Virus record (IMG/VR): IMGVR_UViG_3300046519_000214
Coordinates: 16,554-80,553 of that record
Source: a virus
Length of the DNA: 64,000 nt
Reading direction: 5' to 3' (one strand)
Program-made: the position numbers and the translations under genes
Notes under the pieces: model-generated
The model's database searches: none
The model's input: the letters and a program-made list of their open reading frames with translations, nothing else
What the model was told of the DNA's origin: nothing
Shown: piece by piece, positions 1,671 to 30,173 of the stretch
Position numbering within the stretch: position 1 is the stretch's first letter
Layout of the letters: every line of letters starts with the position of its first letter

Positions 1671-1686
1671 CTCCACCACCGACTGG

Positions 1687-4060: not shown

Positions 4061-4189
4061 CTACGAGATCGTCATCGAAACGTGGGTCAGAAGCCAATAA
4101 ATCAGCCAAATTCCACCTCCGAGGCTCAAGATCGCACCAATAGCGGCCCAGATCAGAAGAAAATACAGAAGGTTTCCAAGTCCAGTCAT
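4061..4189 (-). CDS. 42-aa single-pass membrane peptide
   Basis: MTGLGNLLYFLLIWAAIGAILSLGGGIWLIYWLL; start coupled to primase stop. Confidence 0.55.
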   Translation of the reverse strand: MTGLGNLLYFLLIWAAIGAILSLGGGIWLIYWLLTHVSMTIS

Positions 4190-6597: not shown

Positions 6598-7063
6598 TGG
6601 TGAGCACTCCGTCGATACGCTTCATGAAATCGGTGATCTGATCTTTGGTGAGGATTTCATCCATGAACTGGATGACTGTGGACCTGAACTCATTGATCTG
6701 CTTGAGGTTTGCGGCCCGCTCCAGGTTGTTCAGGAGCTTCTCGAGGAGGGAGTTTTTCGTCTTGAAATACTGCAGCTTCTCAGAGTTATCGTCGGCGCCG
6801 AGCTTCTGCCCGTAGTCCTCGAGATCGTTGATCAGCTTCTGGATCTGCTTCTCGATCGCCACCACTTGGTCGCCTTCGAAGAGATCCTCAGCCACTCCAC
6901 CCTGGGAGGCTCGAGCCTGCTTCAGGAAGAAGTCCTTGACGAGCGGAGGGTAGGGGCACTGAGCGTCGGAGAGATATTCAGGGTTCTCGCTGATGCTCCG
7001 CAACACTCGATTTACGAGGAGGATTTGGTCCTCGCTGATGTTCGGAAAATATTTCGGGTTCAT
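6587..7063 (-). CDS. Helical protein, possible terminase small subunit
   Basis: 158 aa coiled-coil ORF adjacent to and divergent from terL; no other terS candidate seen. Confidence 0.4.
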   Translation of the reverse strand: MNPKYFPNISEDQILLVNRVLRSISENPEYLSDAQCPYPPLVKDFFLKQARASQGGVAEDLFEGDQVVAIEKQIQKLINDLEDYGQKLGADDNSEKLQYFKTKNSLLEKLLNNLERAANLKQINEFRSTVIQFMDEILTKDQITDFMKRIDGVLTNGR

Positions 7064-7237
7064 TTGGGCTCCATGTCTGTTGGAGCTTAGGTAGAAAACC
7101 GGAGGAGGTTTGGCTACACGAGCCGTGCATCAGTTCCAAGAACTCAAGCAGATTACGCAATATCTCTCGACTTCCATTTCTGGGAATGTCTCGCACTAAT
7201 TGCAAATGAACTCTCGGCTACCCATATAGCCAAACAC

Positions 7238-9007: not shown

Positions 9008-9016
9008 GAAACCTCT

Positions 9017-10516: not shown

Positions 10517-10845
10517 AGCCCCCGTATCGCGACATCAACCTCTGGCGCGGCAACTCCGAAACGCTGACCTTCCGGCTACGTGATGCATCCGGCGTTGCCT
10601 ATGATCTGACGGGCGACGTCCTGAAGATGTTTATTGAGAGCGACGAGGTCGTCACGGAGATAGTTGCCACGGTGACCGACGCCCTCGTTGGCGAGTTCCA
10701 GGTCCACATCACCAGCGCCATCACCAAGACCATCACCGCCAAGACCCACCAGGCGAACTACGAGATCGTTCGTTTCTTCGAGGCCGAGGAGAAGACGGTC
10801 CTCCACGGCAACCTCCTGATGGCGGGAAGCATCAACCATGGCTGA
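10513..10845 (+). CDS. BppU-like beta-sandwich virion attachment protein
   Basis: RGNSETLTFRLRDASG..YDLTG pattern; precedes fibre genes. Confidence 0.55.
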   Translation: MKPPYRDINLWRGNSETLTFRLRDASGVAYDLTGDVLKMFIESDEVVTEIVATVTDALVGEFQVHITSAITKTITAKTHQANYEIVRFFEAEEKTVLHGNLLMAGSINHG

Positions 10846-11161
10846 AGTCATCCTGGTCGAGATCTCGAATGGGCCAAGCCTGATCGAGGTTGTCGAACCA
10901 GCGAAGCCTGAAGTCGTCGAGATCGTCCAGAAGGGTGACCGGGGTACCCAAGGTATCCAAGGCATTCAGGGGATCCAAGGCATCCAAGGCCTGAAGGGTG
11001 ACAAGGGTGACAAGGGTGACCAGGGCATCCAAGGCATCCAGGGTCTGAAGGGTGACAAAGGGGATCAAGGCATCCAGGGCATCCAGGGAATCCAAGGCAT
11101 CCAGGGTGAACTTGGGCAGCTCCCGGATCTCGTTGCATTGTTTGAGAATGGATTGATTTGA
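10838..11161 (+). CDS. Collagen-like (Gly-X-Y) fibre protein
   Basis: GIQGIQG/GDKGDKG repeats over ~60 aa. Confidence 0.85.
   Translation: MAEVILVEISNGPSLIEVVEPAKPEVVEIVQKGDRGTQGIQGIQGIQGIQGLKGDKGDKGDQGIQGIQGLKGDKGDQGIQGIQGIQGIQGELGQLPDLVALFENGLI
10935..11110 (+). repeat. Degenerate 9-nt tandem repeats encoding the collagen tract
   Basis: ggcatccaa/ggtgacaag units. Confidence 0.85.
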
Positions 11162-13170
11162 TGTTTGCAGCCGATACGATCGTCGCCCTCACAAGCCGCC
11201 TCTCTGCTGAGTTCAAGAGTGTCCGCACCGCGATCGAGAATGCGGCTTCCTACGTCCGGAAAGCGAACAACGGTTCTGACTTCGCAGATCCTGCCGCAGT
11301 GCGTACCAATATCGGAGCTCAGGCTGCTCTAACCCTTGTTACTCCCGCGCTAGCTCAGGCTGGAACAGACACGACACTGACTGGTTGGAGCTCTCTCCGC
11401 GTTAGGCAGAACGTCTCGGCCTATGCGGCTCCAACGGTCCACGTCCACACGACAGCGGATATCACTGGCCTGGATGCTTACCTTGCGGCCCTCGCCCCTC
11501 TTGTCGATGCACACTTGCAAGGGACACCGACCGCGCCGACTGCAGCATTGGGCACGAACACCACTCAGATCGCCACGATGGCTGCTGTCAAAGCCGCGGT
11601 CGACAACCTTAAGGTTGGTGCTCCCGCTCTCTACGACACCCTGGCAGAGATCGGCACGTGGCTCGATTCTAACGATACAGAGCTCGCCAACGCGATCTCG
11701 TTCAAGCTGGACGCATCGGCATATACCGCGGCCGACGTTCGCGCCAAGCTACTGACAGTCGATGGTGATAGCAGTGGGCTAGATGCCGATCTCCTGGATG
11801 GCCAACACGGAGCCTACTTCCTCAACCTGGTGAACGCGACAGGTAAGCTGCCCGCCGCCAACTTCGACGACACCGGTCACGGAGCGCGAGGCGGTGGCAC
11901 CCTTCACGCCACCGCCACCCCAACGGTTCAAGGCTTCATGCTGGATGCCCCGAACGATGGGCTTGGCTATATGCGTAAGAACGGCGTGTGGTCGCCTAGC
12001 ACTGGTGGGGCGCACACTGACGACGCTCCACCGGCCGCGCCGCTCCAGGATGGACAGCTGTGGTGGAAGTCGAGCACGGGCGTCCTGTATGTCTGGTATG
12101 ACGATGGCAACACCCAGCAGTGGGTTGCGACGTCTGGCAACGCGCAGATCGTCGACCAGAACTACGTCCGCAAGACGGCCGAACGGCGCAATCGCGTTGT
12201 CAACCCGGCGATGCAGATCAGCCAGGAGAACGGTAATACACAGGTCCTGACGGCGAACAGCTATCCGGTCGACCAGTTCTTTCTGGCGTGGTCAGGTGCA
12301 ATGGTACTCGGTGGCCAGCGGGTGCAGACCAAGACGCCAAACGGAAGCCGCGACCGACTGCAAATCTCGGTTGGCACCATCGACGCTTCGATGACGACAA
12401 CCGACTATACGGCGCTGTTTACCCGTATTGAAGGCATTGACGTGGCCGACTTCCTTTGGGGCACCACCAATGCCAAACAGACGATATTGCGTTTCGGCTT
12501 CAAAGGACCGGCAGGCACCTATTCCGTGAGCGTTCAAAATGGGGCCGGGGATCGCTCTTATCTGGCACAATTCACTATTTCGGCGGCACAAGCGGGCACT
12601 GACACGGAACAGATTTTGATTGTCCCTGGCGACATCACCGGCACCTGGTCGGTCGATAATACTAAAGGGGTGCAAATTGTTTGGTGTCTTGCTTGCGGCC
12701 CGACTTACACCGGCGCACTTGGCTGGCAGGCCGGAAACTTTATTGCTGGACCGGGGCAGTTCAATGGTGTGGCGGCAGGCAACACCTTTGATGTCTTTGA
12801 TGTCGGGCTCTACCTCGACCCTGATAAGACTGGTATCCCGCCGAAGTGGGAACTACCAGATGAGGCCGCACAACTGGCAAAGTGCCTACGCTACTACTTC
12901 ATGCTGGCCGCCGAGGGCGTGGTAAACTCCATACAAGTCCGTGGTTACGCAGCGGCTGGCACTGGCGTCAGCAACACCATCCCATTACCGCAGCCGATGC
13001 GCGTAGCACCAACCATGTCACAGAGTGGCAACACCCTCGTAAATGCAGCGTCCGTATCAATGAATTGCTCAACGCGTCAATTCATTATCGCGCTCCCGTC
13101 AACGGCAACCGGTGACACCTATCTAACTGCCACAACCACCGGCAAAGTCATAGCAAACGCGAGGATGTAA
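11158..13170 (+). CDS. Virion fibre protein 1
   Basis: Fibre motifs GTPTAPTA...TQIAT, DTLAEI, GLDADLLDGQHG; start may be 11161. Confidence 0.8.
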   Translation: MMFAADTIVALTSRLSAEFKSVRTAIENAASYVRKANNGSDFADPAAVRTNIGAQAALTLVTPALAQAGTDTTLTGWSSLRVRQNVSAYAAPTVHVHTTADITGLDAYLAALAPLVDAHLQGTPTAPTAALGTNTTQIATMAAVKAAVDNLKVGAPALYDTLAEIGTWLDSNDTELANAISFKLDASAYTAADVRAKLLTVDGDSSGLDADLLDGQHGAYFLNLVNATGKLPAANFDDTGHGARGGGTLHATATPTVQGFMLDAPNDGLGYMRKNGVWSPSTGGAHTDDAPPAAPLQDGQLWWKSSTGVLYVWYDDGNTQQWVATSGNAQIVDQNYVRKTAERRNRVVNPAMQISQENGNTQVLTANSYPVDQFFLAWSGAMVLGGQRVQTKTPNGSRDRLQISVGTIDASMTTTDYTALFTRIEGIDVADFLWGTTNAKQTILRFGFKGPAGTYSVSVQNGAGDRSYLAQFTISAAQAGTDTEQILIVPGDITGTWSVDNTKGVQIVWCLACGPTYTGALGWQAGNFIAGPGQFNGVAAGNTFDVFDVGLYLDPDKTGIPPKWELPDEAAQLAKCLRYYFMLAAEGVVNSIQVRGYAAAGTGVSNTIPLPQPMRVAPTMSQSGNTLVNAASVSMNCSTRQFIIALPSTATGDTYLTATTTGKVIANARM

Positions 13171-13946
13171 TGGCAATCGACTTTCCTTCCTCACCCATCG
13201 TAGGCCAGCAGTTCACCGGGGGCTCAACCAACTACCAGTGGGATGGCACCGCGTGGAACATCGTGCCGCAGATAGGGCCGATGTACATCGGAGACACACC
13301 ACCCTCCAATCCAGCCATCGGGCAGCAATGGTGGCGGTCGAGCAACGGGCAGCAGTACCTCTGGTATGATGACGGCAACACCAAACAGTGGGTACAGTCG
13401 GCCGGTGCAGCAGCGGCGGCGGCATTGGGATCGTGGGAAACGCTGTTCACCAAAACCTACACTGGCGGGTTGATCGGTGACATCGTCAGGGACTTGGCGC
13501 CTTATCGGGAAATCAAATTTACAATCGATGGCCGTGCGGTCGGCGTTGACACGGTGGTCTTGGCCAATCCAAGCACCGACAACGGCAGCACCTTCATAAC
13601 GACGGCCGGGGCATTTCCGCTCGACCAGCTTTACAGCATCAGCGGTGGCGCACCATCCTACAACACCAGCGCCCAAAGCGGGCTGGTTGTGGCCAATCCA
13701 GTCCCGGCTAACACTGGGGTAAACAGCGGCTTTGGCGGTGATATGACGCTTTATGGCTTCAACACGACACTACCTCTTAAAATGGGGCAGGGCCGGTCAG
13801 CTTACATCGACAACTCGTCCAATAGGGTGAACAACTCTTGGGCGACCTTTGTCAGCAATAGCAACGCTTGGAACGCCCTGAAATTGAGCCAAAGCGGGGG
13901 AACTGGTTTCATAGGCTTCATCGCAGTACAGGGGATGCGCGGATGA
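13170..13946 (+). CDS. Virion fibre/accessory protein 2
   Basis: N-terminal IDFP...WDG.AW module plus WYDDGN module shared with neighbours. Confidence 0.75.
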   Translation: MAIDFPSSPIVGQQFTGGSTNYQWDGTAWNIVPQIGPMYIGDTPPSNPAIGQQWWRSSNGQQYLWYDDGNTKQWVQSAGAAAAAALGSWETLFTKTYTGGLIGDIVRDLAPYREIKFTIDGRAVGVDTVVLANPSTDNGSTFITTAGAFPLDQLYSISGGAPSYNTSAQSGLVVANPVPANTGVNSGFGGDMTLYGFNTTLPLKMGQGRSAYIDNSSNRVNNSWATFVSNSNAWNALKLSQSGGTGFIGFIAVQGMRG

Positions 13947-15025
13947 TCGACTTTCCAACTAACCCCACGGTCGGGCAGGTTTTCAACTCTGGCGTCGGGC
14001 CGATCTACACATGGGATGGTATCGCGTGGAGCCTACCACCGGTCAATGTAAAGACGGCCGACCGGCGTAATCGCGTCGTCAACCCTGTTATGCAGGTGAG
14101 CCAAGAGAACGGCTCCAGCGTCGTCTCAACGGTTGGTGCCTATCCGGTCGACCAGTGGATGATTACTTCTAGCGGCTTAACGATGCAGGCGGCACAGGCA
14201 GCGATAGTATCACCCGCCCGTGCCAAGAACACACTGGTGCAATCTTACGGGGTCGCCAAGGCATCACTGGCGGCTACCGATTATGGGCAGATTTACCAAC
14301 CCCTTGAAGGCCAGCGAGTGCAGGATTTTGCGTGGGGAACGCCGGCAAAGGCCATACCCGCGGTGCTGCGCTTTTCAGCCTATGCCGATATCGCTGGCAC
14401 CTATACAGCTTCCGTGACTGATCCAGCAGGCAATGTTTCGTTCCTGTACCCTTTCACTCTTGATGCCGTGGGTGTTTGGAAGACCTTCAATATTCCGATC
14501 CCCGCGCCGATATCAGGCGGCACATGGGCAACCGATGGCTCGGCTGGCATGCTGTTGCATTTCTGCACTGCCTGCGGCACCACTTATCAAGGCGTGCAGG
14601 GGTGGCAGACCGGCAACAAGGTGGGCCTGGCCAGCCAAGCGAACCTTGCGTCGGTGATTAATAAGAACCTCGCCATTGCCGATGTCGGGCTCTATGCCGA
14701 CCCCGACAATACAGGCATCGCGCCACCCTTCGAGGTGACGGAATACGGCAACGATCTGCGCGATTGCAAACGGTATTTCTTCAACATCAATTCTTGTTTG
14801 ATCTTCACGTCCTACGCGAGTGCAGGCGGACTGGTAATCACCACACACCAATTTGAGCCGATGCGAACGACACCAACTGCTGGCTACACTAGCGTCTCAT
14901 ATGCAAACGCCACCGCCCTAGCAACCAATGCCGTCACAGACCGCTTGATCCGGCCGCAGGTCACCGCGACGGCGGCTGGCCAAGCCTATGGCGGCTGCAA
15001 TATTCTTTTGAACGCGAGGATGTAA
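13943..15025 (+). CDS. Virion fibre protein 3 (paralog of fibre 1 C-terminal half)
   Basis: ATG at 13943; RRNRVVNP.MQ.SQENG...NARM shared with fibre 1. Confidence 0.75.
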   Translation: MIDFPTNPTVGQVFNSGVGPIYTWDGIAWSLPPVNVKTADRRNRVVNPVMQVSQENGSSVVSTVGAYPVDQWMITSSGLTMQAAQAAIVSPARAKNTLVQSYGVAKASLAATDYGQIYQPLEGQRVQDFAWGTPAKAIPAVLRFSAYADIAGTYTASVTDPAGNVSFLYPFTLDAVGVWKTFNIPIPAPISGGTWATDGSAGMLLHFCTACGTTYQGVQGWQTGNKVGLASQANLASVINKNLAIADVGLYADPDNTGIAPPFEVTEYGNDLRDCKRYFFNINSCLIFTSYASAGGLVITTHQFEPMRTTPTAGYTSVSYANATALATNAVTDRLIRPQVTATAAGQAYGGCNILLNARM

Positions 15026-15027
15026 CC

Positions 15028-15438
15028 ATGTCACTCACCAAATTCGTTTCCGCTAAATGGCAGATGCCAATACCTGGCCAAGAGCCCACTATCAAAGCCG
15101 TTGGTGACGACGGGCTCGAATACTTCCTCCCCTCGGTGAATAGCGACGTGCCACCGTGGCCGCAGTTTATCGCTGAAGGTGGAGTGATCGACCCGCTGGT
15201 CGAACCAGAACCGATCACCACCTATGTGCTGTCGAAGTTGCTGGTTTGGACGCGCCTGTCTGACGAGGAGGCCGAAACAGCCAGCGCGGCCATGTCGACG
15301 CAATCAGCCAAACTACAGGGCATCTGGAACTCGGCCACTGAAGTCCAAAGTGACAGCGAGTTTTTTGGAAACCTGCAAACTTTCCTGACCGCTGTGCTTG
15401 GCGAGGAAAGAGCAACGCAAGTCCTGGCACCGGCCTAA
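15028..15438 (+). CDS. Putative fibre assembly chaperone
   Basis: 136 aa acidic protein after fibres. Confidence 0.5.
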   Translation: MSLTKFVSAKWQMPIPGQEPTIKAVGDDGLEYFLPSVNSDVPPWPQFIAEGGVIDPLVEPEPITTYVLSKLLVWTRLSDEEAETASAAMSTQSAKLQGIWNSATEVQSDSEFFGNLQTFLTAVLGEERATQVLAPA

Positions 15439-15541
15439 CGCAGCGTAATGAATCACAATTAATCATTGTGCTTCAATGCTTTAATTGAACTTCCTAAACT
15501 AAATTTCCATCTGTCAGTGAACCCCACGGGACCACTGACAG

Positions 15542-16651
15542 ATGAAGCAAATCGCAAAAACACAGGCCATCAAGGATCTACTCACCGCTTCGGCGGGTGA
15601 CGTCGATGTTGATGGTCTGCGCGTCTACGAAGCGATTGCTTTCAACACCCTGCCGATCCGTAAGGAACACCCGCTCTACAAGGGTGCTCGCGCCGATCGC
15701 GCCTTCCTCCTCGAGATGGCCGGTGAGCTAAAGCGTGAATCTCGCCCCGTGCAGATCATGCACAACACCTCGCCGCTCCCAATTGGCCGCGTCTTCCATG
15801 GTGAAGTCGTAGACACGGGCGTCGAGTCCGAACTCCGCGTGCTCTTCTTCCTCGATCCGACCGCCAATGACCAGGCGACCAAGATCGAGGCTGGCAGCGT
15901 TGACCAGGTGTCTGTCTCTGTTCTCGCAAAGCAGATGCTTAATTCCAAGTCGGGTTTTGATTACTTCGGCCCCGACTCCTCGTCCGACAACATCTGGTCC
16001 GGAACGGACAACGACGGAAACCAGGTCGGCAAAAACGGCGTCTACGCCCGCATGGTCGGTCTCGACAAGTTTTTCGAGCTGTCCCTCGTCGGCCAGGGCG
16101 GCGCCCAAAATGCACGGATCGTTTCACGCGACCGGTCGCACTTCGGCCAGTCCCTCGAGCAGCTCGCTGCCTCTGGGATGGATCCGAACTCCCTCGTCCT
16201 GCTCGCAACCGCCTCCAAGGAAGATTCTATGGACCTCGCAACTCTCGTCGCCAACCTGACGACCACGACTGCTGACCTCACGAACGCCAAGCGCGACCTT
16301 ACGGACGCAACCGGCAAGGTCACCACGCTCGAAGCCACCATCACCGAACGTGACGCAACGATCGCTGATCTGAACACCCAGCTGACCGCTGCCAATGCTG
16401 TCGACGTCAACGCTGTCACCGCTGACCGCGATGCTGCCGTTGCTGCCCTCTCGGAAGTCGCCAAGAGCGTCCTGACGAAGGTTGGCAAGCTCAACGTCGA
16501 ACTGCCGAAGACGGTCACCGAGCTGTCCGCCCTGATCAACGAGCACTCCGCTGTTCTCGTGATCCAGGCAGGTGGCAAGGCCAGCGACAAGCCGACCGAC
16601 CTGGCGAACCAGCCGTCCCGCAACGCCGCTGCTTTCCGCTCGGCCCGCTAA
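15542..16651 (+). CDS. Prohead protease/scaffold fusion
   Basis: IMH...PIGR and VSVS protease-like motifs, ELSLV.QG, coiled-coil C-terminal half; upstream of capsid genes. Confidence 0.75.
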   Translation: MKQIAKTQAIKDLLTASAGDVDVDGLRVYEAIAFNTLPIRKEHPLYKGARADRAFLLEMAGELKRESRPVQIMHNTSPLPIGRVFHGEVVDTGVESELRVLFFLDPTANDQATKIEAGSVDQVSVSVLAKQMLNSKSGFDYFGPDSSSDNIWSGTDNDGNQVGKNGVYARMVGLDKFFELSLVGQGGAQNARIVSRDRSHFGQSLEQLAASGMDPNSLVLLATASKEDSMDLATLVANLTTTTADLTNAKRDLTDATGKVTTLEATITERDATIADLNTQLTAANAVDVNAVTADRDAAVAALSEVAKSVLTKVGKLNVELPKTVTELSALINEHSAVLVIQAGGKASDKPTDLANQPSRNAAAFRSAR

Positions 16652-22827: not shown

Positions 22828-23084
22828 TTTGGGCGCTGGGCGTCAGGCCCAGCCTTCTCGAGGAAGTGTACTGGTCGCACTCCCTCGAGGATCTGACCAC
22901 TCTGGTGAGTTTGAAATCACAGGAGCGTATGGCCGGATACTACCAGGAATACGAAACGTTCCGCCTGGTAGTCGATGAAGCACTCGGAGGGGGAGGAAAC
23001 TCCAAACCTGATGAGAGCGAGGCGATCCAAACCTTCGATCAACTCGCCAGGGCATTTGCCGACGTAGGAGGCACACTTGGCTGA
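22713..23084 (+). CDS. -1 frameshift extension of tail chaperone (gpGT-like)
   Basis: -1 frame is open from the slippery site into ORF 22866-23084. Confidence 0.8.
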   Translation, partial: FHAALGKVSQARGKPQKPTRGPQVFHGWLAELSFRDSIIWALGVRPSLLEEVYWSHSLEDLTTLVSLKSQERMAGYYQEYETFRLVVDEALGGGGNSKPDESEAIQTFDQLARAFADVGGTLG

Positions 23085-26000
23085 GAATACCTTTGAAGTT
23101 GATTATGAACTGAACGCTGCCCAGGCTCGAGATGAGCTGGAGAAGGTTCGTAAACAACTCGACGGTGTCACAGCCAAGTTCAACAGTAATCTCGGGACTG
23201 CTAAGAAGGGCATTCTCGAGCTGACCAAGCTCCTCAGCGACATGGTCGCCGCAACCGAGAAAGGCACTGCTGCTCGCGCCCGTGCCGAGCGCAGTGCCAC
23301 CTCGATCCTCGGAGCTCGCTACCAGCAACTTGGCCAGGGCTCGGGCGTCCAGAAGTCTCAGGAAAACCAGCTCAACCGAGTCGCCGCCCAGGCACTCGTC
23401 AACGATATTCAGAACACCGCAAAGGCTGCAGAAGCCCGCGTCACTGAGGCGATCGTCAAGCAGACCGTCAGCCTTCTGAAGACGACCGAGGCCGCGGTCG
23501 CAGCTCGCATCAAAAACGCCACGTTCGCCAACAACCAGTCGATCGCGAACTCCGACGATCGTTATCTCAGCGCCCGCAACACGCTGGCCAACCAGCGCCG
23601 TGCCGACGCCATCTATGCCGCAGAGAATGGTCGCGCCGCCCTGTCGAGCCGCAACCGTCTCGAGCAGCTGAACTATAACGGCGGCGCCGATCTCATGGGA
23701 ATCCAAGGTCGCGTCATGCTGAACTACGCCGCAGTCGGTGGCCTGTTCAACACGATCAAGGGCGCCGGAACCGGCCTCGTCGAGCTGGACAAGGAACTGC
23801 ATCAGTACCAGGCGATCTCTGCTGCCACGAACAAGGAGATGGTGCAGTTCAAGCAGAACCTGGTGCAGATCTCCCAGTCTGTTCCGTACACCACGCTCCA
23901 GATCACCCAGGCCGCAACCGCCCTTGCCCAGGCGGGTCTGTCCACTGGCCAGGTCAGCGAGTCCCTTGGCTCGATCGCGCAGTTTGCTACGGCCACGGGC
24001 TCGAGCCTGTCGCAGGCTGTTGACGTCGTGACCTCGACCCTCACGGCCTTCAACCTCGAAACGAGCCGCACGGGTGACGTCGCCAACATCTTCACCGCGG
24101 CGCTCAACCTCTCGAAGCTGTCCGTCGACAAGCTGCAGACCTCGCTGAACTACATCGGCCCGACCGCCGAAGCTCTTGGCCTGACGCTCGAGGAGACGAC
24201 CTCGATCCTCGGTGCTCTTTCCCAGTCTGGCGTGAAGGCCTCGACGATGGGCACAGGCTTCCGTGCTCTGCTCACCGACCTCCAGTCTCCATCCAAGAAA
24301 CTGGTCGACGTGTTGAGGGCTGCTGGCCTGTCCGTCGACGACATCAACGTCAAGACGAAGGGCTTTCTGCCTGTTATCGAGACGCTGAAGAAGGCGGGCT
24401 TTGGCGCAGCCGAGGCCTACGAAACTCTCGAGACCCGTTCCGCAGCAGCCTTCCTGGCACTGGCGAACAACACAGAACTGGCTCGTGATATGCAGCGTAG
24501 CTTCACGCTATCGGCTGCAGCTGTCGAGGCGAACGCCATTCAGATGAAGTCGCTGAGCAACACCGCCCAGGTCTTCAAGAACACTCTCGGCGCTTCTGTC
24601 TTCACCGCGTTCGAGCCCATCGTGGCGACACTGCAGCAGATAATCGCCGGTGCCACCACTGTCTTCTCCTGGCTCAATAAATTTCCTGGAGTGCTTCAGG
24701 CGATCGGCGCTGTCGCCGGCACCTTCGCAACCGTGCTCGGCGTCTCGCTGTTTGGCAGCTTGATCAAGAGCCTGGGTCTGATGATCCCGCTGCTCGCCAA
24801 CTTCGCCACTGGGTTCAAGGGCGTGGGACTAGCCGCTACTGAGGGTGCTGTCGCCGTTGGCTTCTTCGGCCGCGTCCTCGCCGGCCTATCCGCTCTCACT
24901 CTCACCAACTGGATCGGTCTTGTCATCGCGGGTGTCGCCCTGGCGGCGGGAGCCTTCTTTGCCTGGAAGGGTAAGACCGACGAACTCACCAAGAGCATCG
25001 ACGACCTCGAGTCCAAGGTCAATGAGCTGAAGGGCGCGGCCGACGCGACCGAAAGCAAGATCGGCTCGCTCGACACCGCGATCCAAGGTCTGATCGACCG
25101 CCGCAAAGAACTTGACGGCGACCGGATCATGCGTGGCGCCAAGATCGATGAGCTCCGTGCCCAGTTCAACGAGCTCGGTCTGTCCATCAAGGACGACACC
25201 ATGTCGGTCACGGACCTCATCCGTGAGCTGAACGACCTTCGTGCGACATCCTCCCGAGTTCGTGCCGCTGAGCTGGCTGAGGCCGCTGAAGCTCGCCGTG
25301 GCGAGATCGACAAACTGAAGGAACAGCGCGGGAAGCTCACCGACCACAATGGTCCTCAAGCCAACTACATCCGTGGTCTGGCCGATCAGGCGGTTGGTGG
25401 TGCCGGTGGTGGGATCGAGACCTCTGCGAACAACTACCTCATCGAGCAGATCAGCAAGCGTTTCGGCACCAACATCGGTGAGGCGCTTCGAATCTCGCTT
25501 GGCGATCTCAGCCAGGTCCACGATGCACGTCAGGCCCTTTCCCTCGGCAAGTACGTGAATGAACAGATCGGTGTTGCTCAGCGCCAGGGCGACCCCAACG
25601 GTAGCCTCGGCTTCCTCACGGAGCTGAAGGCCACGCTCGACCCGATCGTTGCCAACCTGACCAAGACTGCCGCAGCCGACGCCGATCTCGTCACCATCCT
25701 GCGCCGCGAAGCCGACGCTGGAATTCAGGGCTCGAAGTCCTTTGGTCGTTTGAGCGAGAAGTCGCAGTTCATCCAGAAGACGTTCGACGACAAGATGAGC
25801 GCGATCTCGACCGGGAATCTGAACGACGAGGAGAAGATCGAAGCATACAGCGCCGTCCGCCGGTGGTTGGAAACCGTTCGCGACAAGTCGATCCAGGCGT
25901 TCAAGGATGATTTCGCGAAGGAATCTTCGACCGACCCCAACCTCGCCGGTCTCGACGACAAGTCCGTTTCGTCGCAGATCGACCAGGCGCTGGCCAGTCT

Positions 26001-28452
26001 GCAGCTGAAGCTGAACGAGGCGAGCCAGAAAGCTGTCACCAACCAGACGAAGTACACCTCGAAGGAAGTCAAGAAGGCCGAGCAGAACCAGAACCGCGAG
26101 CTGGCCCGCTGGCAGCGGCAGATCTCTGGTGCCAAGAACAACGAAGCGTTCGAGGCTGCGAAGAAGGGCTACGACGAGCTCCGCAAGACGACGACGGCAC
26201 AGATCATCAACTTCTATGATGAGCTCATCCGCCTCGCGAACCTGAACAAGGATACCGACGCAGTCGAGAAGCTGCAGGAGGAGCGGAAGGAGTTTACGGA
26301 ACGCGCTGCGGCCGAGTTGGCTGAGCAGAACCGTGCCAACGACGAGAAGGAACTCGACCTCCAGAAGGAGTCGCTGCAGCGCCAGCGTGAAGCTGTCCAG
26401 GACGCAGCGAAGACCCTCCGCACCAAGATCGAGGAAGCAACGGCCGAGCTGAAGAAGACGCCGCCGAGTGCAGCCATGAACGCGCTCGTCGACAAGATCA
26501 AGGAGCTGACCGGCCAGCTCAGCGGCGAGCTCAACAAGATCGGCAACATTGACGTCCAGCTCGAGGGCATCGATCTGAACGAGCCGATCAGCCAAGCAAT
26601 GGCTGGTAGCGCCCAGTCTGCGATCAAGCACTATATGGACCGCGGTCTTTCCAAGGCTGGCGCCGCTGCGATCGCGTCGAACCTGTCCGTCGAGTCCGAG
26701 TTCAATCCGAATGCTCTAGGCGACCATGGCACCGCCCATGGTGTTGCCCAGTGGCGAGGCACACGCTGGAACGAGCTCCGGTCCTTTGCAATCCAAAAGG
26801 GCACAGCCGCGAACGATGTCAACACTCAGTATGATTTCGTACTGAAGGAGCTTATGCGTGACTACCCGGATCTCTTCGCACGGCTGAAGGCAGGTACCGA
26901 AGATCCGCAGGCTTTGTCGAAGGCGTTCATGAACATCTTCGAACGGCCAAACAAAGATCCGTCGATCAACCACGTCGGCAAGCGCATGTCTCGCGCCCAG
27001 GCGTTTCTTTCTGGCACGGACACCGCCGGTTCGGCTGAAACGTCCAAGATCCTCGAAGAGACCGAACGTCAGGCCACGGAGAACATCAACAAGGGTATCG
27101 AGGCCCAGGCAGAAGCTGCGATCACCAGCCTCAAGTCCCGTATCGGCAACCTGAAGACCCAGGTCCGCTTCACGGACGACGCAAAGTCGCTCAAGGATCT
27201 GCAGTCACAGATCCAGAGCGCCCACGACCAGCTCCTGGATCAGGAGATCAAGAAGTTCGATGCTGAGAATGCCGAGCTCAAGAACACCAACCCGACCGAC
27301 TACACGAACAAGCTCAAGGAGCTGAAGGACGGCCTGCACGAAAACCTCAACTCCGACCTTCAGAAGGTGATTGAGGAATATTTCAAAGCCGCGGAAGAAG
27401 AGCTGCAGCGGCCGGTCGATCGCGCCAAGGCTGCACTGGATGTTGCCCAGCAGCCCGACATGGCCAGCAAGTACACCACTCTGGACATTCAGAAGCTTCA
27501 GCAGAACGTGGTCGATCGCGAGCGTGAGGCAGCTGCCAACCGTGTCCTGCTCATCGAGCAGCAGATCGCTGAAGTTCGCCGCATGGCGGCTGACGCAGAA
27601 GCGAACAACACGGACGGCTCGCGTGACACCGAGGTGCTGCAGTGGCGCACCCTCGAGAACGACCTCATCGAGAAGAACAACCAGCTGAAGGAGCAGAACA
27701 ACCTCCTCGACGCTGCCAAGGCGAACCAGGGGCCAACAACGGTCAATGCGATCCAGTCCGCAACCGCAGCCTGGGCTCAGCAGAACGGCATCATCGACGC
27801 TACCGGTAAGATGATCCCGCTGGCAACCCAGGTGGGCAACGCCTGGGGTCAGGTGCTTGATGGTTTGTCTTCCGGCTTCTCGCAGTTCTTCATGAACATT
27901 TCCTCTGGCACCATGTTGGCCGGCGAGGCGTTCAAGCAGCTCGGCCAGACCATCCTCCAGATGTTCATGCAGATCATCGCCAAGGCCCTCGCCAACCAGA
28001 TCATCATGTCGCTGTTCAGCGGTGGATCCGGCGGCTCTAGCATCCTCTCTCAGCTGGGGGAGGGTCTCTTCGGCATCGTCGGCGGCAAGGCTGTTGGTGG
28101 CCTGATCCGAGCCGCCAATGGTGCGGTCGCTCCGTTCCGCGACGGTGGCGCCTACCAGCTGATGCCTGGTGAGATGGTTCTGCGTCAGTCGGCCGTCCAG
28201 GCGATCGGTGAGGATAAGTTGACCCACATCAACAACCTGGGCAACCGCCAGATCTCGGAAGGCGCTCTCCAGGGTCTCGCTGCGAACAGCAACAAGAAGC
28301 AGGATCCTGGCATGGTCAACGTATGGGTTGTCTCGCCGGATCAAGTCCCACAGTCTGGCCCGAACGACATCATCGCTACCGTCAGCGCCAACATCCAGAA
28401 CCGCGGCTCGATCAAGCAATTGATCCAGCAGGTAGCGATGGGTCAGATCTAG
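23077..28452 (+). CDS. Tape measure protein with internal phage-tail-lysozyme domain
   Basis: 1791 aa helical; TP901-like TMP core; GLSKAGAAAIASNLSVES.FNP...G.AQW at ~26630-27000. Confidence 0.92.
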   Translation: MAENTFEVDYELNAAQARDELEKVRKQLDGVTAKFNSNLGTAKKGILELTKLLSDMVAATEKGTAARARAERSATSILGARYQQLGQGSGVQKSQENQLNRVAAQALVNDIQNTAKAAEARVTEAIVKQTVSLLKTTEAAVAARIKNATFANNQSIANSDDRYLSARNTLANQRRADAIYAAENGRAALSSRNRLEQLNYNGGADLMGIQGRVMLNYAAVGGLFNTIKGAGTGLVELDKELHQYQAISAATNKEMVQFKQNLVQISQSVPYTTLQITQAATALAQAGLSTGQVSESLGSIAQFATATGSSLSQAVDVVTSTLTAFNLETSRTGDVANIFTAALNLSKLSVDKLQTSLNYIGPTAEALGLTLEETTSILGALSQSGVKASTMGTGFRALLTDLQSPSKKLVDVLRAAGLSVDDINVKTKGFLPVIETLKKAGFGAAEAYETLETRSAAAFLALANNTELARDMQRSFTLSAAAVEANAIQMKSLSNTAQVFKNTLGASVFTAFEPIVATLQQIIAGATTVFSWLNKFPGVLQAIGAVAGTFATVLGVSLFGSLIKSLGLMIPLLANFATGFKGVGLAATEGAVAVGFFGRVLAGLSALTLTNWIGLVIAGVALAAGAFFAWKGKTDELTKSIDDLESKVNELKGAADATESKIGSLDTAIQGLIDRRKELDGDRIMRGAKIDELRAQFNELGLSIKDDTMSVTDLIRELNDLRATSSRVRAAELAEAAEARRGEIDKLKEQRGKLTDHNGPQANYIRGLADQAVGGAGGGIETSANNYLIEQISKRFGTNIGEALRISLGDLSQVHDARQALSLGKYVNEQIGVAQRQGDPNGSLGFLTELKATLDPIVANLTKTAAADADLVTILRREADAGIQGSKSFGRLSEKSQFIQKTFDDKMSAISTGNLNDEEKIEAYSAVRRWLETVRDKSIQAFKDDFAKESSTDPNLAGLDDKSVSSQIDQALASLQLKLNEASQKAVTNQTKYTSKEVKKAEQNQNRELARWQRQISGAKNNEAFEAAKKGYDELRKTTTAQIINFYDELIRLANLNKDTDAVEKLQEERKEFTERAAAELAEQNRANDEKELDLQKESLQRQREAVQDAAKTLRTKIEEATAELKKTPPSAAMNALVDKIKELTGQLSGELNKIGNIDVQLEGIDLNEPISQAMAGSAQSAIKHYMDRGLSKAGAAAIASNLSVESEFNPNALGDHGTAHGVAQWRGTRWNELRSFAIQKGTAANDVNTQYDFVLKELMRDYPDLFARLKAGTEDPQALSKAFMNIFERPNKDPSINHVGKRMSRAQAFLSGTDTAGSAETSKILEETERQATENINKGIEAQAEAAITSLKSRIGNLKTQVRFTDDAKSLKDLQSQIQSAHDQLLDQEIKKFDAENAELKNTNPTDYTNKLKELKDGLHENLNSDLQKVIEEYFKAAEEELQRPVDRAKAALDVAQQPDMASKYTTLDIQKLQQNVVDREREAAANRVLLIEQQIAEVRRMAADAEANNTDGSRDTEVLQWRTLENDLIEKNNQLKEQNNLLDAAKANQGPTTVNAIQSATAAWAQQNGIIDATGKMIPLATQVGNAWGQVLDGLSSGFSQFFMNISSGTMLAGEAFKQLGQTILQMFMQIIAKALANQIIMSLFSGGSGGSSILSQLGEGLFGIVGGKAVGGLIRAANGAVAPFRDGGAYQLMPGEMVLRQSAVQAIGEDKLTHINNLGNRQISEGALQGLAANSNKKQDPGMVNVWVVSPDQVPQSGPNDIIATVSANIQNRGSIKQLIQQVAMGQI

Positions 28453-28814
28453 AATTTGACGGAATGAAGGGGACCGCACTCAGGATGAGGTGCGATCCCC
28501 GGCCCGCCGAGTGCATCGATCACCTGGTTGTTCTTGAAGAACACCAGGTAGAACCCTTGGCTGTACGCCCCGAAACTATTCTTCGCATAGAAGGTCGTGC
28601 AGACTGCCCATGCTCGAGGATAGCGGAAATTGTCGACCGCCTGGTGGGGCTTGCCAGCCTTCAGATCCCGAACCGACCATGGATCCTTTGCTGACTTGCG
28701 AATGATGTCCGCGACCTTCTTGTCAGTCCCGGTAGGTGCCGGCTCACTGGCAGCGTAAGCGGTGGTGGCGATCAACGTGATCGCTGCTGCGGACAAAATT
28801 CTGAAAAACTGCAT
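28449..28814 (-). CDS. Secreted/periplasmic protein (moron; possible superinfection exclusion)
   Basis: Signal peptide MQFFRILSAAAITLIATTAYA; KDP.S and AKNSFGAY motif, two Cys. Confidence 0.7.
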   Translation of the reverse strand: MQFFRILSAAAITLIATTAYAASEPAPTGTDKKVADIIRKSAKDPWSVRDLKAGKPHQAVDNFRYPRAWAVCTTFYAKNSFGAYSQGFYLVFFKNNQVIDALGGPGIAPHPECGPLHSVKF

Positions 28815-28819
28815 AACCC

Positions 28820-28835
28820 TTAACAGCACCTTAAC
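28820..28835. promoter_or_regulatory. CtrA-type box
   Basis: TTAA-cagcacc-TTAAC, perfect TTAA-N7-TTAA. Confidence 0.65.
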
Positions 28836-28887
28836 GATCTATCGACAATTCTAATCTGTGGACCCCTGCGCGTTTTCTGCTCAGGGG

Positions 28888-28916
28888 TTGGCACGACTCA
28901 ACCACTAGGCCACAAT
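28888..28916 (+). promoter_or_regulatory. Putative sigma70 promoter for the Rep-like gene
   Basis: TTGGCA-17 nt-CACAAT, GANTC in the spacer. Confidence 0.5.
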
Positions 28917-28969
28917 ATCACTGATTTGCAACGGGGGACGTGAGTCTTGACGTAATTTACCCACAAACG

Positions 28970-29035
28970 AAAAAGCACCGGGTTGCCGCCCAGTGCTTGT
29001 TCAAACCTTCAGAGAGCTCTTGAAGCCCCTTCACA
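28970..29035 (-). ncRNA. Predicted counter-transcribed RNA (~60-65 nt) upstream of Rep-like gene
   Basis: Minus-strand TTGACA at 29070-29065 followed by ccTGATTCG; minus-strand terminator aagcactggg-cggcaa-cccggtgctt-ttt ending ~28970. Confidence 0.55.
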
Positions 29036-29124
29036 AGGTCAAAGCTCTCATAAAACGAATCAGGTGTCAACGGGAAATTTGCCGATTTCTCGAACGATAT
29101 CTTATACCTAAGTGAGGTACAGCT

Positions 29125-29913
29125 TTGACGGGAAACCTATTGGTTGCTCTGCAACTCAAACGTGCTATTTCCAAAGCCACAAAACTTCAGGTCTGCACCA
29201 ATCTCTCGAGGATCCTTTGGGATCAGCACCACAAAGGCGAGCTCAGCGACCGGCGAGCTCACCAGCTCGACGCGGCCCTGAAACTACGCCAGACTCTGAT
29301 CCACCAACGGATCATCACGGTGTTCACCGAGATCGAGCGGAAGAAGCCACAGCCCCGGAAGAGGGAGGCGTCGATTGCCCGCCGTCGTGGACTGGTTGCA
29401 GCGGGATTTCTTCCTCCGGAGATCGCTACCCAGTTCACCATGTCTGAGCAGGCGGTCCTCACAACATTGGCGAAGCTGGCTGGTGAGTGCTCTGTCATTC
29501 GTTGCGCCGTCGACGCCATCGCTGCCCGTGCGGCTGTCTCGAGATCCATGGTTCAGAAGACGATCCGGAAAGCCCACGATATGCGGCTGATCGAGCGAAA
29601 GATTCAGAAGCGGAAGGGCGAGAAGAACGACTTCAACCTGATCAGGCTTCTGTGCCCGAAGTGGCTCGGCTGGTTGTCGCGGAGGATAGGGTGGAAAAAA
29701 GAAAGCACCACGAATACTCAAGGTTTATCTACTAAGAGCGCAGCGACCGCAAACCCTTGTATTGCAAGGGAATCAAACCCATATCAACCCGCATGGAAAC
29801 GTATGATTTCCCGTACTTCACCTGGACAACGGAATACCCAGAGTCCTCTCCAAAGGTGCAGCTCGGGCGAGGCTATGAATTTGCAGCCAGACCTCGCGGA
29901 CCTGATCAGGTAA
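29125..29913 (+). CDS. Winged-helix protein resembling alphaproteobacterial plasmid replication initiators
   Basis: gagg RBS plus TTG; LPPEIA..FT..EQAVL, HTH VDAIAARAAVSRSMVQKTIR, N..R....W..WL. Confidence 0.6.
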   Translation: MTGNLLVALQLKRAISKATKLQVCTNLSRILWDQHHKGELSDRRAHQLDAALKLRQTLIHQRIITVFTEIERKKPQPRKREASIARRRGLVAAGFLPPEIATQFTMSEQAVLTTLAKLAGECSVIRCAVDAIAARAAVSRSMVQKTIRKAHDMRLIERKIQKRKGEKNDFNLIRLLCPKWLGWLSRRIGWKKESTTNTQGLSTKSAATANPCIARESNPYQPAWKRMISRTSPGQRNTQSPLQRCSSGEAMNLQPDLADLIR

Positions 29914-30173
29914 AGTACACGCTCCACTACAAGACGATGAAGTTTTACACGGACGAGACTGGCCGTGTCCTCACGGGTATCATGCCCAAGATCAACATCG
30001 CTCGTCTGGAAGAGTTCTACCTGAAGCACAAGCTGTTCGAGAAGTTCATTCTGCCTTTGCCGGGGAAGGGGCTTTTGACCGTTCGCTTCAGCAAGCCGCT
30101 GAAATACCGTGTCGCTGAGGACGGTCAAGGTACTGTCGAATCCTTCGAGATGGAGGTCACGACCCAGCCATGA
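29793..30173 (+). CDS. Distal tail protein (lambda gpM-like)
   Basis: METYDF...V.LG.GY...F...H pattern; position. Confidence 0.7.
   Translation: METYDFPYFTWTTEYPESSPKVQLGRGYEFAARPRGPDQVKYTLHYKTMKFYTDETGRVLTGIMPKINIARLEEFYLKHKLFEKFILPLPGKGLLTVRFSKPLKYRVAEDGQGTVESFEMEVTTQP

What the first reader, a model, noticed from the sequence alone, without database searches (positions are those of the whole stretch)
28836..29913. Candidate antisense-RNA-controlled plasmid replicon inside the tail operon (possible phage-plasmid)
Seen: between the tape measure and gpM-like genes is a self-contained cassette. It has a sense promoter (TTGGCA-17-CACAAT, 28888-28916), a ~200-nt leader with inverted repeats, and a 262-aa winged-helix ORF. 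On the opposite strand of the leader, TTGACA-cc-TGATTCG (from 29070) points at a U-tailed terminator ending ~28970, defining a ~60-65 nt antisense RNA. GANTC sites lie at 28895, 28942 and 29057, two of them in the promoter spacers. Known: repABC/repC replicons of Rhizobiales are controlled by a 55-60 nt counter-transcribed RNA upstream of repC, from a promoter I recall starting TTGACAGTGATTCG. Inference: the ORF is not RepC, but resembles an HTH family I associate with alphaproteobacterial plasmids. It may be a non-RepC initiator with repABC-style copy control that keeps the prophage as a plasmid, separate from the lytic PolA/primase system. No integrase is seen in the window.
Basis: partly seen in the sequence, partly recalled or inferred. 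Interest (0 to 1): 0.9.

Follow-up and report, generated by a model that had tools for sequence, protein, structure and literature searches.

The report
Antisense-RNA-controlled plasmid module in phage tail operon
An 80-kb soil phage that has a plasmid-partition gene but no integrase carries, inside its tail operon, a DNA-binding gene preceded by a small antisense RNA gene; the same pair sits next to the partition genes of many small alphaproteobacterial plasmids with no recognised replication gene, so it is probably a new plasmid replicon type that lets the phage live as a plasmid.

Summary
The window is part of an 80.5-kb, 98%-complete virus record related to Caulobacter phage Seuss. The record has ParA but no tyrosine integrase, serine recombinase or rve-type transposase.

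Between the tape-measure and distal-tail genes lie three things:
- a minus-strand gene for a secreted protein;
- a 310-nt leader;
- P0001, a protein with a three-helix N-domain, one winged helix and a disordered tail.

P0001 relatives are the only gene family shared by all six small plasmids compared. They usually sit beside parAB. Five small plasmids lack Rep3, RPA and RepC. Cultured phage AmM-1 has parA, a small ORF and a P0001 homolog in a row.

In 21 loci the antisense strand upstream of the gene shows one architecture: inverted repeat, TTGAC, 17 nt, a -10-like hexamer, a variable hairpin, then a GC-rich terminator. The terminator stem shows compensatory changes and antisense-strand G-U pairs. 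It matches no Rfam family.

My reading is an uncharacterised single-winged-helix initiator candidate under countertranscript control, used as a plasmid-prophage replicon. The regulatory architecture is well supported. Replication itself is inferred. pAU20rrn, which also has a Rep3 gene, and the absence of iterons count against it.

The parts
28449..28813 (-). P0002: small secreted protein with an N-terminal signal peptide. It is the first gene of the inserted cassette and is specific to the phages; the plasmid modules lack it.
   Evidence: ORF list and translation. phrog_2320, unknown function, E 1.5e-08. Present at the same place in L007. The start at ATG 28813 is inferred.
28820..28835 (+). 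Full CtrA-box consensus TTAA-N7-TTAAC, 53 nt upstream of the sense -35 and 7 nt from the P0002 start codon.
   Evidence: It is the only match in the 64-kb window, against 0.02 expected. It is invariant in L006 and L007. Binding by CtrA is inferred from established knowledge of alphaproteobacterial CtrA sites.
28861..28889 (.). HV1: hypervariable hairpin abutting the sense -35.
   Evidence: Three different sequences fold into a hairpin at the same site in the window, L006 and L007, with z -3.7, -2.5 and -2.2. Its role is unknown.
28888..28916 (+). Sense promoter TTGGCA-17-CACAAT for the leader and P0001.
   Evidence: Promoter scan. Conserved in L006 and L007.
28963..29035 (-). Inferred countertranscribed RNA of about 70 nt: a small 5' stem-loop, a single-stranded linker, then a terminator hairpin (stem 28998-28973, loop CGGCAA) and a U tail.
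   Evidence: Terminator scan. Folds, z -1.7 to -2.8. L006 and L007 add a compensating T/A pair to the stem, and a G-U pair exists only on the minus strand. The same design occurs in 21 loci. The 5' end is inferred from promoter spacing.
29012..29049 (.). HV2: hypervariable hairpin in the sense leader. Its 5' arm lies in the RNA-RNA overlap. Its 3' arm carries CUC and overlaps the antisense -10.
   Evidence: Different sequences give the same hairpin in the three phages, z -3.3, -3.5 and -4.1, with 0 of 200 shuffles folding as well. In the full-leader fold the 3' arm pairs with the SD/start region.
29042..29070 (-). Antisense promoter TTGACA-17-GAGCTT.
   Evidence: Sequence. TTGAC[AGC]-N17-[GC]AGnnT recurs on the antisense strand in the window, L006, L007 and five of the 17 plasmid leaders scanned. 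AmM-1 shows the same motif, TTGACT-N17-GAGGGT, when its leader is read directly. The Methylobacterium group has TTGAC-N17-ATGGCT.
29072..29091 (.). Inverted repeat GGGAAAT-TTGCCG-ATTTCTC (sense strand) next to the antisense -35 and 20 nt upstream of the SD. Its spacer is the same hexamer as the terminator loop.
   Evidence: An inverted repeat in this position is seen in 20 of 21 loci. The same hexamer sits in both loops in 11 of 21 loci, with three different hexamers. Whether it works as a protein site or as an RNA hairpin is not resolved.
29125..29913 (+). P0001: candidate initiator of 262 aa. Residues 1-72 form a three-helix domain, 106-175 a winged helix, and 190-262 a disordered tail encoded by DNA shared with the next gene.
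   Evidence: The family covers residues ~8-200. The body 29100-29700 is only 40-65% identical to L007, while the flanks are 80-90% identical.
29757..30173 (+). Resumption of the tail operon: a promoter-like motif noted by the scan (29757-29784) and the distal tail gene (ATG 29796).
Evidence: phrog_34212 for the tail gene. DNA is 97% identical to L007 in bin 29760.

Best explanation
The stretch is a plasmid-type maintenance module that was inserted, together with a secreted-protein gene, between the tape-measure and distal-tail genes of a Seuss-like 80-kb siphophage.

P0001 is a single-winged-helix DNA-binding protein from a large, unnamed alphaproteobacterial family. I take that family to be the replication initiator of many small plasmids.

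P0001 is transcribed from TTGGCA-17-CACAAT through a ~200-nt leader. A ~70-nt RNA is made from the opposite strand (TTGACA-17-GAGCTT to an intrinsic terminator) and is fully complementary to the middle of that leader.

Likely mechanism (inferred):
- The countertranscript pairs with the leader, starting at hairpin loops.
- Pairing opens hairpin HV2.
- The freed CUC-containing 3' arm of HV2 then pairs with the Shine-Dalgarno/start region and lowers P0001 synthesis.
- RNA dosage therefore sets copy number and incompatibility.

Together with the ParA system encoded elsewhere in the genome, the module would keep the prophage as a low-copy plasmid, separate from the PolA/primase system used in lytic growth. 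The CtrA box and the GANTC sites may tie expression to the host cell cycle.

Shown here: the sequence elements, their conservation and covariation, the family's plasmid context, and ParA without an integrase.

Inferred: transcription of the RNA, its effect, origin function, and the plasmid state.
For: 1. Genome context.
- The record is 80,553 bp and 98% complete.
- It has ParA (Pfam VirC1/AAA_31/ParA; phrog_164, E 3e-31).
- It has no Phage_integrase, Resolvase or rve hit at E<=1.
- A relative with 46% TerL identity is the 85.7-kb circular plasmid pMaq22A_3p, which carries parAB.
- A protein 68% identical to P0001 is recorded for a Rhizobium ruizarguesonis protein; the longest contig carrying it is 83,005 bp, about the size of the phage.

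2. Protein family context.
- There are 1137 representatives at E<=1e-3.
- The family occurs on 46 plasmid records, mostly 9-50 kb.
- In a six-plasmid comparison the homolog is the only family present in all six, and ParA is the next, in five.
- The homolog lies beside ParA in pSS37A-Re-6, pB146-3, pMNOD05, pSM30-2, pMPOP02, pMRAD03, M. bullatum plasmid 4, the M. iwaonis SD4 plasmid, an M. fujisawaense plasmid and pMPPM05.
- These plasmids have no MOB-suite replicon type.
- Five of them have no Rep3_N, RPA or RP-C.

3. Cultured phage AmM-1.
- It has parA, a small ORF and the homolog in a row.
- Its ParA is 62% identical to this phage's ParA.

4. Antisense element.
- A strict terminator scan finds one on the antisense strand in 11 of 17 plasmid leaders, against 1.9 expected; the sense strand has one.
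- In nine Methylobacterium/Methylorubrum plasmids the terminator stem has 13 pairs, 7 of them with compensatory double changes and with G-U pairs on the antisense strand.
- The antisense strand folds better than its complement in 20 of 20 loci.
- AmM-1 shows the same order of elements with the same CGGCAA loop.

5. Variable hairpins.
- Hairpins keep their structure but not their sequence between phages whose HTH helices are identical. This is expected for RNA specificity determinants.

6. Precedents in the literature.
- Single-HTH Reps on small alphaproteobacterial plasmids, some with only inverted repeats over the rep promoter (PMC3832669).
- A single-winged-helix initiator supergroup (bioRxiv 10.1101/2024.09.03.610885).
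- ctRNA control of repC (PMC10194956).
Against: - No experiment shows replication by any member of this family.
- pAU20rrn (9.4 kb) has a Rep3 initiator as well as the homolog with its antisense element, so the homolog is not needed as the sole initiator there.
- pMNOD05 also has a DUF927 protein that could act in replication.
- No iterons or AT-rich origin-like stretch were found near the gene.
- The fold is a generic winged helix, with best matches CodY, CRP and MarR at Z 8-10. The solved single-WH initiators do not appear among the listed matches.
- pMaq22A_3p, the plasmid-borne relative of the phage, has no detectable homolog in the one ORF compared, the 276-aa gene next to its parAB.
- The P0001 body is far more diverged between sister phages than its surroundings. 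That pattern also fits an immunity repressor.
- The -10 hexamer is weak. GGGAG on the antisense strand may be conserved as an anti-SD on the sense strand rather than as a promoter element.
Confidence: 0.55

Rival explanations
1. P0001 is a transcription factor: a prophage immunity or lysogeny regulator in phages, and a regulator of par or backbone genes in plasmids. The antisense RNA tunes its level, as in the P22 sar, lambda OOP or P1 c4 systems. The plasmids would replicate by some other, unrecognised function.
For: - The fold is a generic winged helix closest to CodY, CRP and MarR.
- Relatives score weakly for GntR, MarR and HTH_36.
- pAU20rrn has its own Rep3.
- The coding body is hyper-diverged between sister phages, as immunity regions are.
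- An inverted repeat abuts a promoter.
- No iterons were found.
Against: - The homolog is the only family common to all six small plasmids compared, and five of those lack Rep3, RPA and RepC.
- It is placed next to parAB in at least ten plasmids and in AmM-1, where rep genes normally sit.
- Countertranscript control with hairpin-loop RNAs is typical of replication control.
- The variable hairpins change while the HTH helix stays identical, so they are not operators that co-evolve with the protein.
Confidence: 0.25
2. P0001 is an origin-binding initiator used for lytic phage replication, like lambda O. It does not serve plasmid maintenance, and the phage is not a plasmid prophage.
For: Weak matches to PHROG 'replication initiation O-like' families on residues 103-179 (E 4e-4 and 1.3e-3). 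The closest phage relatives by TerL (Seuss, JWF and others) are, to my knowledge, known as lytic phages (for the relationship).
Against: - The genome already has prim-pol/D5 helicase, PolA, ligase and nucleotide-metabolism genes.
- The gene sits in the late tail operon with its own promoter.
- ParA is present, and the phage-collection relatives of Seuss type give no ParA hit.
- The family is mainly found on plasmids.
Confidence: 0.08
3. The minus-strand promoter and terminator form only the 5' leader (an attenuator) of the downstream secreted-protein gene P0002. They do not encode a regulatory RNA acting on P0001.
For: P0002 lies downstream of the terminator on the same strand, and the scan found no separate sigma-70-like promoter for it.
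Against: In AmM-1 and in the plasmids the same element has no co-oriented gene downstream. The neighbours there are parAB or other genes on the opposite strand. P0002 is absent from the plasmid modules.
Confidence: 0.07

Closest known systems
ctRNA control of repC in repABC and repC-family replicons of Rhizobiales (PMC10194956)
   Same: A small RNA gene lies on the opposite strand just upstream of the initiator gene. It has a TTGACA-type promoter and an intrinsic terminator. The host group is Rhizobiales. In those systems the RNA is a negative regulator and an incompatibility determinant.
   Different: - The initiator candidate is not RepC.
- No Rfam ctRNA family matches.
- The par genes are not in one operon with it in the phage.
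- The RNA is inferred to be ~70-95 nt with two hairpins, against 55-59 nt.
- An extra inverted repeat with a matching loop lies beside the RBS.
Hairpin-loop antisense RNAs of I-complex and IncFII plasmids (ColIb-P9 Inc RNA, R1 CopA). The 5'-rUUGGCG-3' loop motif is known from Asano et al. 1998, whose title is listed in PMC10724649; the details given here are from my own knowledge.
   Same: Recognition is through hairpin loops. The Methylobacterium-group RNAs carry UUGGCG or UUGCCG in the terminator loop, and the phage leader carries UUGCCG. Control is aimed at translation of a rep gene.
   Different: The hosts are enterobacteria and the Rep family is unrelated. A leader peptide and an activator pseudoknot define those systems and were not looked for here.
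REP modules of small Paracoccus plasmids with HTH_36 or MarR-like Rep proteins (Maj et al. 2013, PMC3832669)
   Same: Small alphaproteobacterial plasmids have initiators that look like single-HTH regulators. pAES4 and pMARC2 have no iterons, only inverted repeats over the rep promoter.
   Different: Sequence relatedness could not be tested because the records are not in the collection. No antisense RNA is described for them in the sections I read.
Phage-plasmids (P1, N15, SSU5 types; PMC7969092), and here pMaq22A_3p and phage AmM-1
   Same: A complete virion and lysis gene set is combined with ParA, and there is no integrase. pMaq22A_3p is a Seuss-like phage genome deposited as a circular plasmid.
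   Different: The replicon candidate sits inside the tail operon, far from parA. The initiator family differs from those of the known groups. The plasmid state is not shown for this phage.
Single-winged-helix replication initiators (sWH RIP supergroup; bioRxiv 10.1101/2024.09.03.610885)
   Same: A single winged helix is the only DNA-binding domain.
   Different: No sequence or fold match to the solved members (pSK41 and pTZ2162 RepA) was seen among the listed hits. Membership is open.

Membership tests
repABC / repC-family replicon | Initiator is RepC (Pfam RP-C / RP-C_C) | tested here: not met
   The Pfam scan of P0001 at E<=0.1 lists only weak HTH_6, MarR_2 and HTH_11 matches.
repABC / repC-family replicon | Small countertranscribed RNA encoded upstream of the initiator gene, with its own promoter and intrinsic terminator | tested here: met
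   Sequence elements are present and conserved. The transcript itself has not been observed.
repABC / repC-family replicon | RNA belongs to the described ctRNA families (Rfam) | tested here: not met
   No ctRNA family is matched at E<=10 in 28400-30000. Nothing is matched at E<=0.1 in ten plasmid loci.
repABC / repC-family replicon | repA-repB partition genes upstream in the same operon | tested here: not met
   ParA lies about 37 kb away, at 7556-8263 of the record. The upstream neighbour of the leader is a divergent secreted-protein gene.
Phage-plasmid | Complete phage morphogenesis and lysis gene set | tested here: met
   TerL, tape measure, gpL-like, NlpC/P60 and a large tail protein are present. 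CheckV completeness is 98%.
Phage-plasmid | Plasmid partition function | tested here: met
   ParA by Pfam and PHROG, followed by a 95-aa ORF.
Phage-plasmid | No integration machinery | tested here: met
   No Phage_integrase, Resolvase or rve hit at E<=1 in the whole record, with positive controls. About 2% of the genome may be missing.
Phage-plasmid | Plasmid replication function and an observed extrachromosomal prophage | not testable with these tools
   The evidence is only indirect: the plasmid context of the family, pMaq22A_3p, and the 83-kb contig carrying the Rhizobium ruizarguesonis homolog.
Single-winged-helix plasmid initiators (sWH RIPs) | One winged-helix domain as the DNA-binding module | tested here: met
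   In the AlphaFold2 model, block-mean pLDDT is 94-97 for residues 101-160 and 89-94 for 161-180. The winged helix spans 106-175.
Single-winged-helix plasmid initiators (sWH RIPs) | Detectable homology to known members | tested here: inconclusive
   A profile search against PDB sequences gives only HTH-motif hits at E>=0.05. Fold searches list generic winged helices.
Pfam HTH_36 (PF13730) | Match above the gathering score | tested here: not met
   P0001 has no HTH_36 hit. Seventeen of 60 relatives match at E<0.01, with the best at 2e-05.
I-complex / IncFII-type antisense control | Recognition hairpin with a UUGGCG-type loop | tested here: met
   TTGGCG or TTGCCG sits in the terminator loop of the Methylobacterium-group RNAs. 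Its complement is in the phage RNA, so the phage leader carries UUGCCG.
I-complex / IncFII-type antisense control | Leader peptide and activator pseudoknot coupled to rep translation | not tested
   I did not look for these features.

The most novel reading that the evidence does not exclude
A widespread, so far unnamed replicon class of Alphaproteobacteria. Its initiator has a single winged helix. Initiator synthesis is set by a two-hairpin countertranscript. The terminator loop of that RNA matches the loop of a second hairpin beside the ribosome-binding site, giving a second kissing site that covaries across lineages. CtrA and CcrM sites provide cell-cycle input. Unrelated phages (a Seuss-like 80-kb siphophage and AmM-1) and phage-like mini-plasmids have captured this replicon to live as plasmids.
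Probability: 0.4. Interest if true: 0.8.

Novelty: new variant of a known kind. Interest (0 to 1): 0.72.

Why it matters
If the module replicates, three things follow.
- It names the replicon of dozens of small Methylobacterium, Methylorubrum, Methylocystis, Aureimonas, Shinella and Agrobacterium plasmids that current typing schemes leave blank.
- It adds an RNA family that is missing from Rfam.
- It gives a compact origin cassette for vectors in rhizobia and methylotrophs.

It would also show that a phage lineage known from lytic isolates can become a plasmid prophage by taking up a roughly 1-kb replicon plus a par system. That bears on how phage-plasmids arise.

The matched loops offer a direct test of how incompatibility specificity evolves.

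Tried and rejected
The contigs carrying P0005 (the R. ruizarguesonis homolog) and P0003 could not be fetched.
- Scans of genome contigs and metagenome contigs with the protein, the alignment and a 21-mer found no further relatives.
- Three of the hits to an 18-mer in viral contigs (L011-L013) and the one genome hit (L015) were chance matches.
- Sequencing runs: 22 rhizosphere metagenome DNA runs hold the stretch, and no RNA holder is listed. Laying four runs showed only identical low-depth contigs and no variants or joints.
- Rfam gave no credible match.
- RNAalifold on a MAFFT alignment of all 19 leaders gave no structure because the sequences are too diverged to align by sequence. Subgroups were used instead.
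- Iteron search: only two-copy short repeats were found.
- Cumulative GC skew in six plasmids places an extreme near the module in three and far from it in three, so it is uninformative.
- Constrained folding of the leader did not change the predicted accessibility of the RBS (0.33 against 0.32). The proposed switch therefore rests on co-transcriptional order, not on equilibrium folding.
- Fold searches gave only generic winged-helix matches.
- The 276-aa gene next to parAB in pMaq22A_3p is not similar to P0001.
- pAU20rrn RepA is not similar to P0001.
- The Paracoccus plasmid records (JQ684025, KC561054) and the ColIb-P9 paper (PMC1170848) are not held.
Full report
**What is there**

The window is bases 16554-80553 of an 80,553-bp IMG/VR virus record that CheckV rates 98% complete. 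Its gene layout runs as follows:
- The tape-measure gene (23077-28452, + strand).
- A 121-aa minus-strand gene for a protein with a signal peptide (28449-28813; phrog_2320, function unknown).
- A 310-nt non-coding stretch.
- A 262-aa ORF on the + strand (29125-29913, TTG start, GAGG 8 nt upstream). I call its product P0001.
- The tail operon then resumes with phrog_34212 (ATG 29796), a gpL-like gene and an NlpC/P60 gene.

The last 118 nt of the P0001 ORF overlap the next tail gene.

It also finds a minus-strand terminator (stem 28998-28973, 10 pairs, T-rich tail).

**The genome**

TerL is 43% identical to that of Caulobacter phage Seuss and 40-42% identical to those of Achromobacter phage JWF and similar ~80-kb siphophages. 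The record encodes:
- prim-pol/D5 helicase, family A polymerase, ligase, RNR, ThyX and an SbcC-like ATPase;
- a ParA ATPase followed by a 95-aa ORF, in the 16.5 kb left of the window.

Searches of the whole record for Phage_integrase, Resolvase and rve find nothing at E<=1, while the control genomes respond.

Three further results bear on lifestyle:
- The one plasmid record with a close TerL (46%) is pMaq22A_3p of Methylobacterium aquaticum. It is an 85.7-kb circular plasmid that is a whole phage genome of this type with parAB.
- The phage-collection relatives of Seuss type give no hit to this ParA. The best hit, at 62% identity, is Aurantimonas phage AmM-1.
- A protein 68% identical to P0001 is recorded for a Rhizobium ruizarguesonis protein; the longest contig carrying it is 83,005 bp, about the size of this phage.

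**The protein**

Pfam and NCBIfam give only sub-threshold HTH matches. PHROGs gives phrog_15967 (function unknown, E 4e-37) and weak 'replication initiation O-like' hits on residues 103-179.

A full HMMER search finds 1137 cluster representatives at E<=1e-3. They are typically 230-255 aa and match residues ~8-200.

AlphaFold2 run on a 60-sequence alignment gives mean pLDDT 81. The model has a three-helix N-domain, a linker helix, a winged helix at 106-175 and a disordered tail from ~190. Fold searches return generic winged helices (CodY, CRP, MarR, Orc/Cdc6 WH) at Z 8-10. The fold therefore says 'DNA-binding' and no more.

**Related phages**

Two viral contigs carry the same cassette at the same site:
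- L006, protein 85% identical;
- L007, protein 50% identical.

Against L007 the flanking tail genes and the leader are 80-90% identical. The P0001 body (29100-29700) drops to 40-65%, and identity returns to >90% from 29700. So the C-terminal 65 residues are encoded by conserved tail-operon DNA, and the functional protein ends near residue 190.

Within the conserved leader, two patches differ completely yet fold into hairpins in all three phages:
- HV1 (28861-28889), z -2.2 to -3.7;
- HV2 (29012-49), z -3.3 to -4.1.

The window and L006 have identical HTH helices, so these patches are not operators that co-evolve with the protein. The terminator stem gains a compensating T/A pair in L006 and L007, and it has a G-U pair only on the minus strand.

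**The family on plasmids**

tblastn finds the family on 46 PLSDB plasmids at about 30% identity. Most are 9-50 kb and come from Methylobacterium, Methylorubrum, Methylocystis, Aureimonas, Shinella, Agrobacterium and Pleomorphomonas.

In an all-against-all comparison of six small plasmids from five genera, the homolog is the only family present in all six. ParA is next, in five. This comparison is selected for the homolog, so the informative part is that nothing else is shared.

The homolog lies beside parA/parB in at least ten plasmids. None of these has a MOB-suite replicon type or an annotated rep gene. Five small ones have no Rep3_N, RPA or RP-C.

The exception is pAU20rrn, which has a Rep3 initiator as well.

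Cultured phage AmM-1 has parA, a small ORF and the homolog in a row.

**The antisense element is family-wide**

Reading the antisense strand upstream of the gene in 17 plasmid loci, the three phage contigs and AmM-1 gives one order of elements:
- a 5-8-bp inverted repeat;
- TTGAC(A/G/T);
- 17 nt;
- GAGnnT (or ATGGCT in the Methylobacterium group);
- a variable stem-loop;
- a GC-rich stem-loop with a U run, lying 120-250 nt before the start codon.

The supporting tests are these:
- With a strict terminator rule, 11 of 17 plasmid leaders score on the antisense strand, against 1.9 expected from the density in 310 kb of the same loci. One scores on the sense strand.
- In nine Methylobacterium/Methylorubrum plasmids, RNAalifold predicts a 13-pair terminator stem. 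Seven of its pairs show double compensatory changes, and several G-U pairs exist only on the antisense strand.
- The antisense strand folds more stably than its complement in 20 of 20 loci. The loci are not all independent; there are roughly ten lineages.
- No Rfam family matches in the phage or in ten plasmid loci.
- In AmM-1 and the plasmids no gene follows the terminator on that strand. The element is therefore a stand-alone RNA gene, not a leader.

**Matched loops**

The inverted repeat next to the antisense -35 becomes a hairpin 20-50 nt before the RBS on the sense transcript. Its spacer is the same hexamer as the terminator loop in 11 of 21 loci:
- CGGCAA in the window, L006, L007 and AmM-1;
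- TTGGCG in six Methylobacterium plasmids;
- TTGCCG in pMPOP02.

The RNA's terminator loop is thus complementary to the loop of a second hairpin in the leader, outside the region of overlap. UUGGCG is the loop motif known from ColIb-P9-type antisense systems. The title of that work is cited in PMC10724649; the rest is from my own knowledge. A protein site with a conserved spacer is an alternative reading.

**Mechanism proposed**

The RNA (about 29035 to 28965) pairs with the leader. Its overlap includes the 5' arm of HV2 but not the 3' arm, because the 3' arm lies under the antisense -10.

In the full-leader fold, that 3' arm (containing CUC) pairs with the SD/start region. In L007 the arm GCUCCC is complementary to the SD GGGAGC. 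If HV2 forms first during transcription, the RBS stays free. RNA binding would release the arm to close the RBS.

Equilibrium folding did not discriminate between the two states. This step is inference.

**Other inputs**

The full CtrA consensus TTAA-N7-TTAAC occurs once in the window, at 28820-28835, against 0.02 expected. It is invariant in the three phages. GTTAA motifs also lie near the presumed sense promoters of the plasmids (by eye).

**Verdict**

The claim of a plasmid-derived gene under conserved countertranscript control is well supported; I put it at about 0.85.

That the gene is a replication initiator keeping this phage as a plasmid is the best reading. It rests on context only, with pAU20rrn and the lack of iterons against it, and I put it at 0.55.

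Precedents exist for HTH-only Reps on small alphaproteobacterial plasmids (PMC3832669), for single-WH initiators (bioRxiv 10.1101/2024.09.03.610885) and for ctRNA control (PMC10194956). I therefore class it as a new variant of a known kind.

Noticed in passing
L029 (Aurantimonas phage AmM-1) 5570-5800: The annotated start of AmM1_33 (locus 5656) lies upstream of the antisense promoter and terminator. The likely start is the ATG near 5785, so the deposited ORF is about 40 codons too long and hides the RNA gene.
   Followed up: partly
L003 (pB146-3, 16 kb) and L020 (pMPOP02, 23 kb): These small Methylorubrum 'plasmids' consist mostly of phage head and packaging genes (portal, TerL, TerS, head closure) plus ParA and the P0001 homolog. 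They look like phage-like mini-plasmids or satellites that use the same module.
   Followed up: no
L019 5741-6442 (M. bullatum plasmid 3): A full ctrA response-regulator gene is annotated 2 kb downstream of the homolog on a 49.7-kb plasmid. This is notable given the CtrA box in the phage module.
   Followed up: no
L001 (pAU20rrn, the 9.4-kb rRNA-operon plasmid of Aureimonas): The plasmid carries both a Rep3 initiator (216-1028) and the P0001 homolog with its antisense element (7617-8363 and upstream). Either it has two replicons or the homolog has another role there.
   Followed up: partly
window 28449-28813: The first gene of the insertion is a minus-strand gene for a secreted 121-aa protein (phrog_2320). 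It is conserved in L007. It could be a moron such as a superinfection-exclusion factor.
   Followed up: no
window 28861-28889: Hypervariable hairpin HV1 lies directly upstream of the sense -35, outside the inferred RNA-RNA overlap. Its structure is kept and its sequence replaced in three phages. I found no explanation for it.
   Followed up: partly
G000 1-16553 (left of the window; locus L005): The left arm carries host-like genes: a TerB domain protein, a TAXI/NMT1-like solute-binding protein, a PAPS-reductase-like protein and an M28 peptidase. These lie next to parA.
   Followed up: no
L026 2327-2968: In an M. fujisawaense plasmid, a sigma-70 family sigma factor gene follows the homolog directly.
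   Followed up: no
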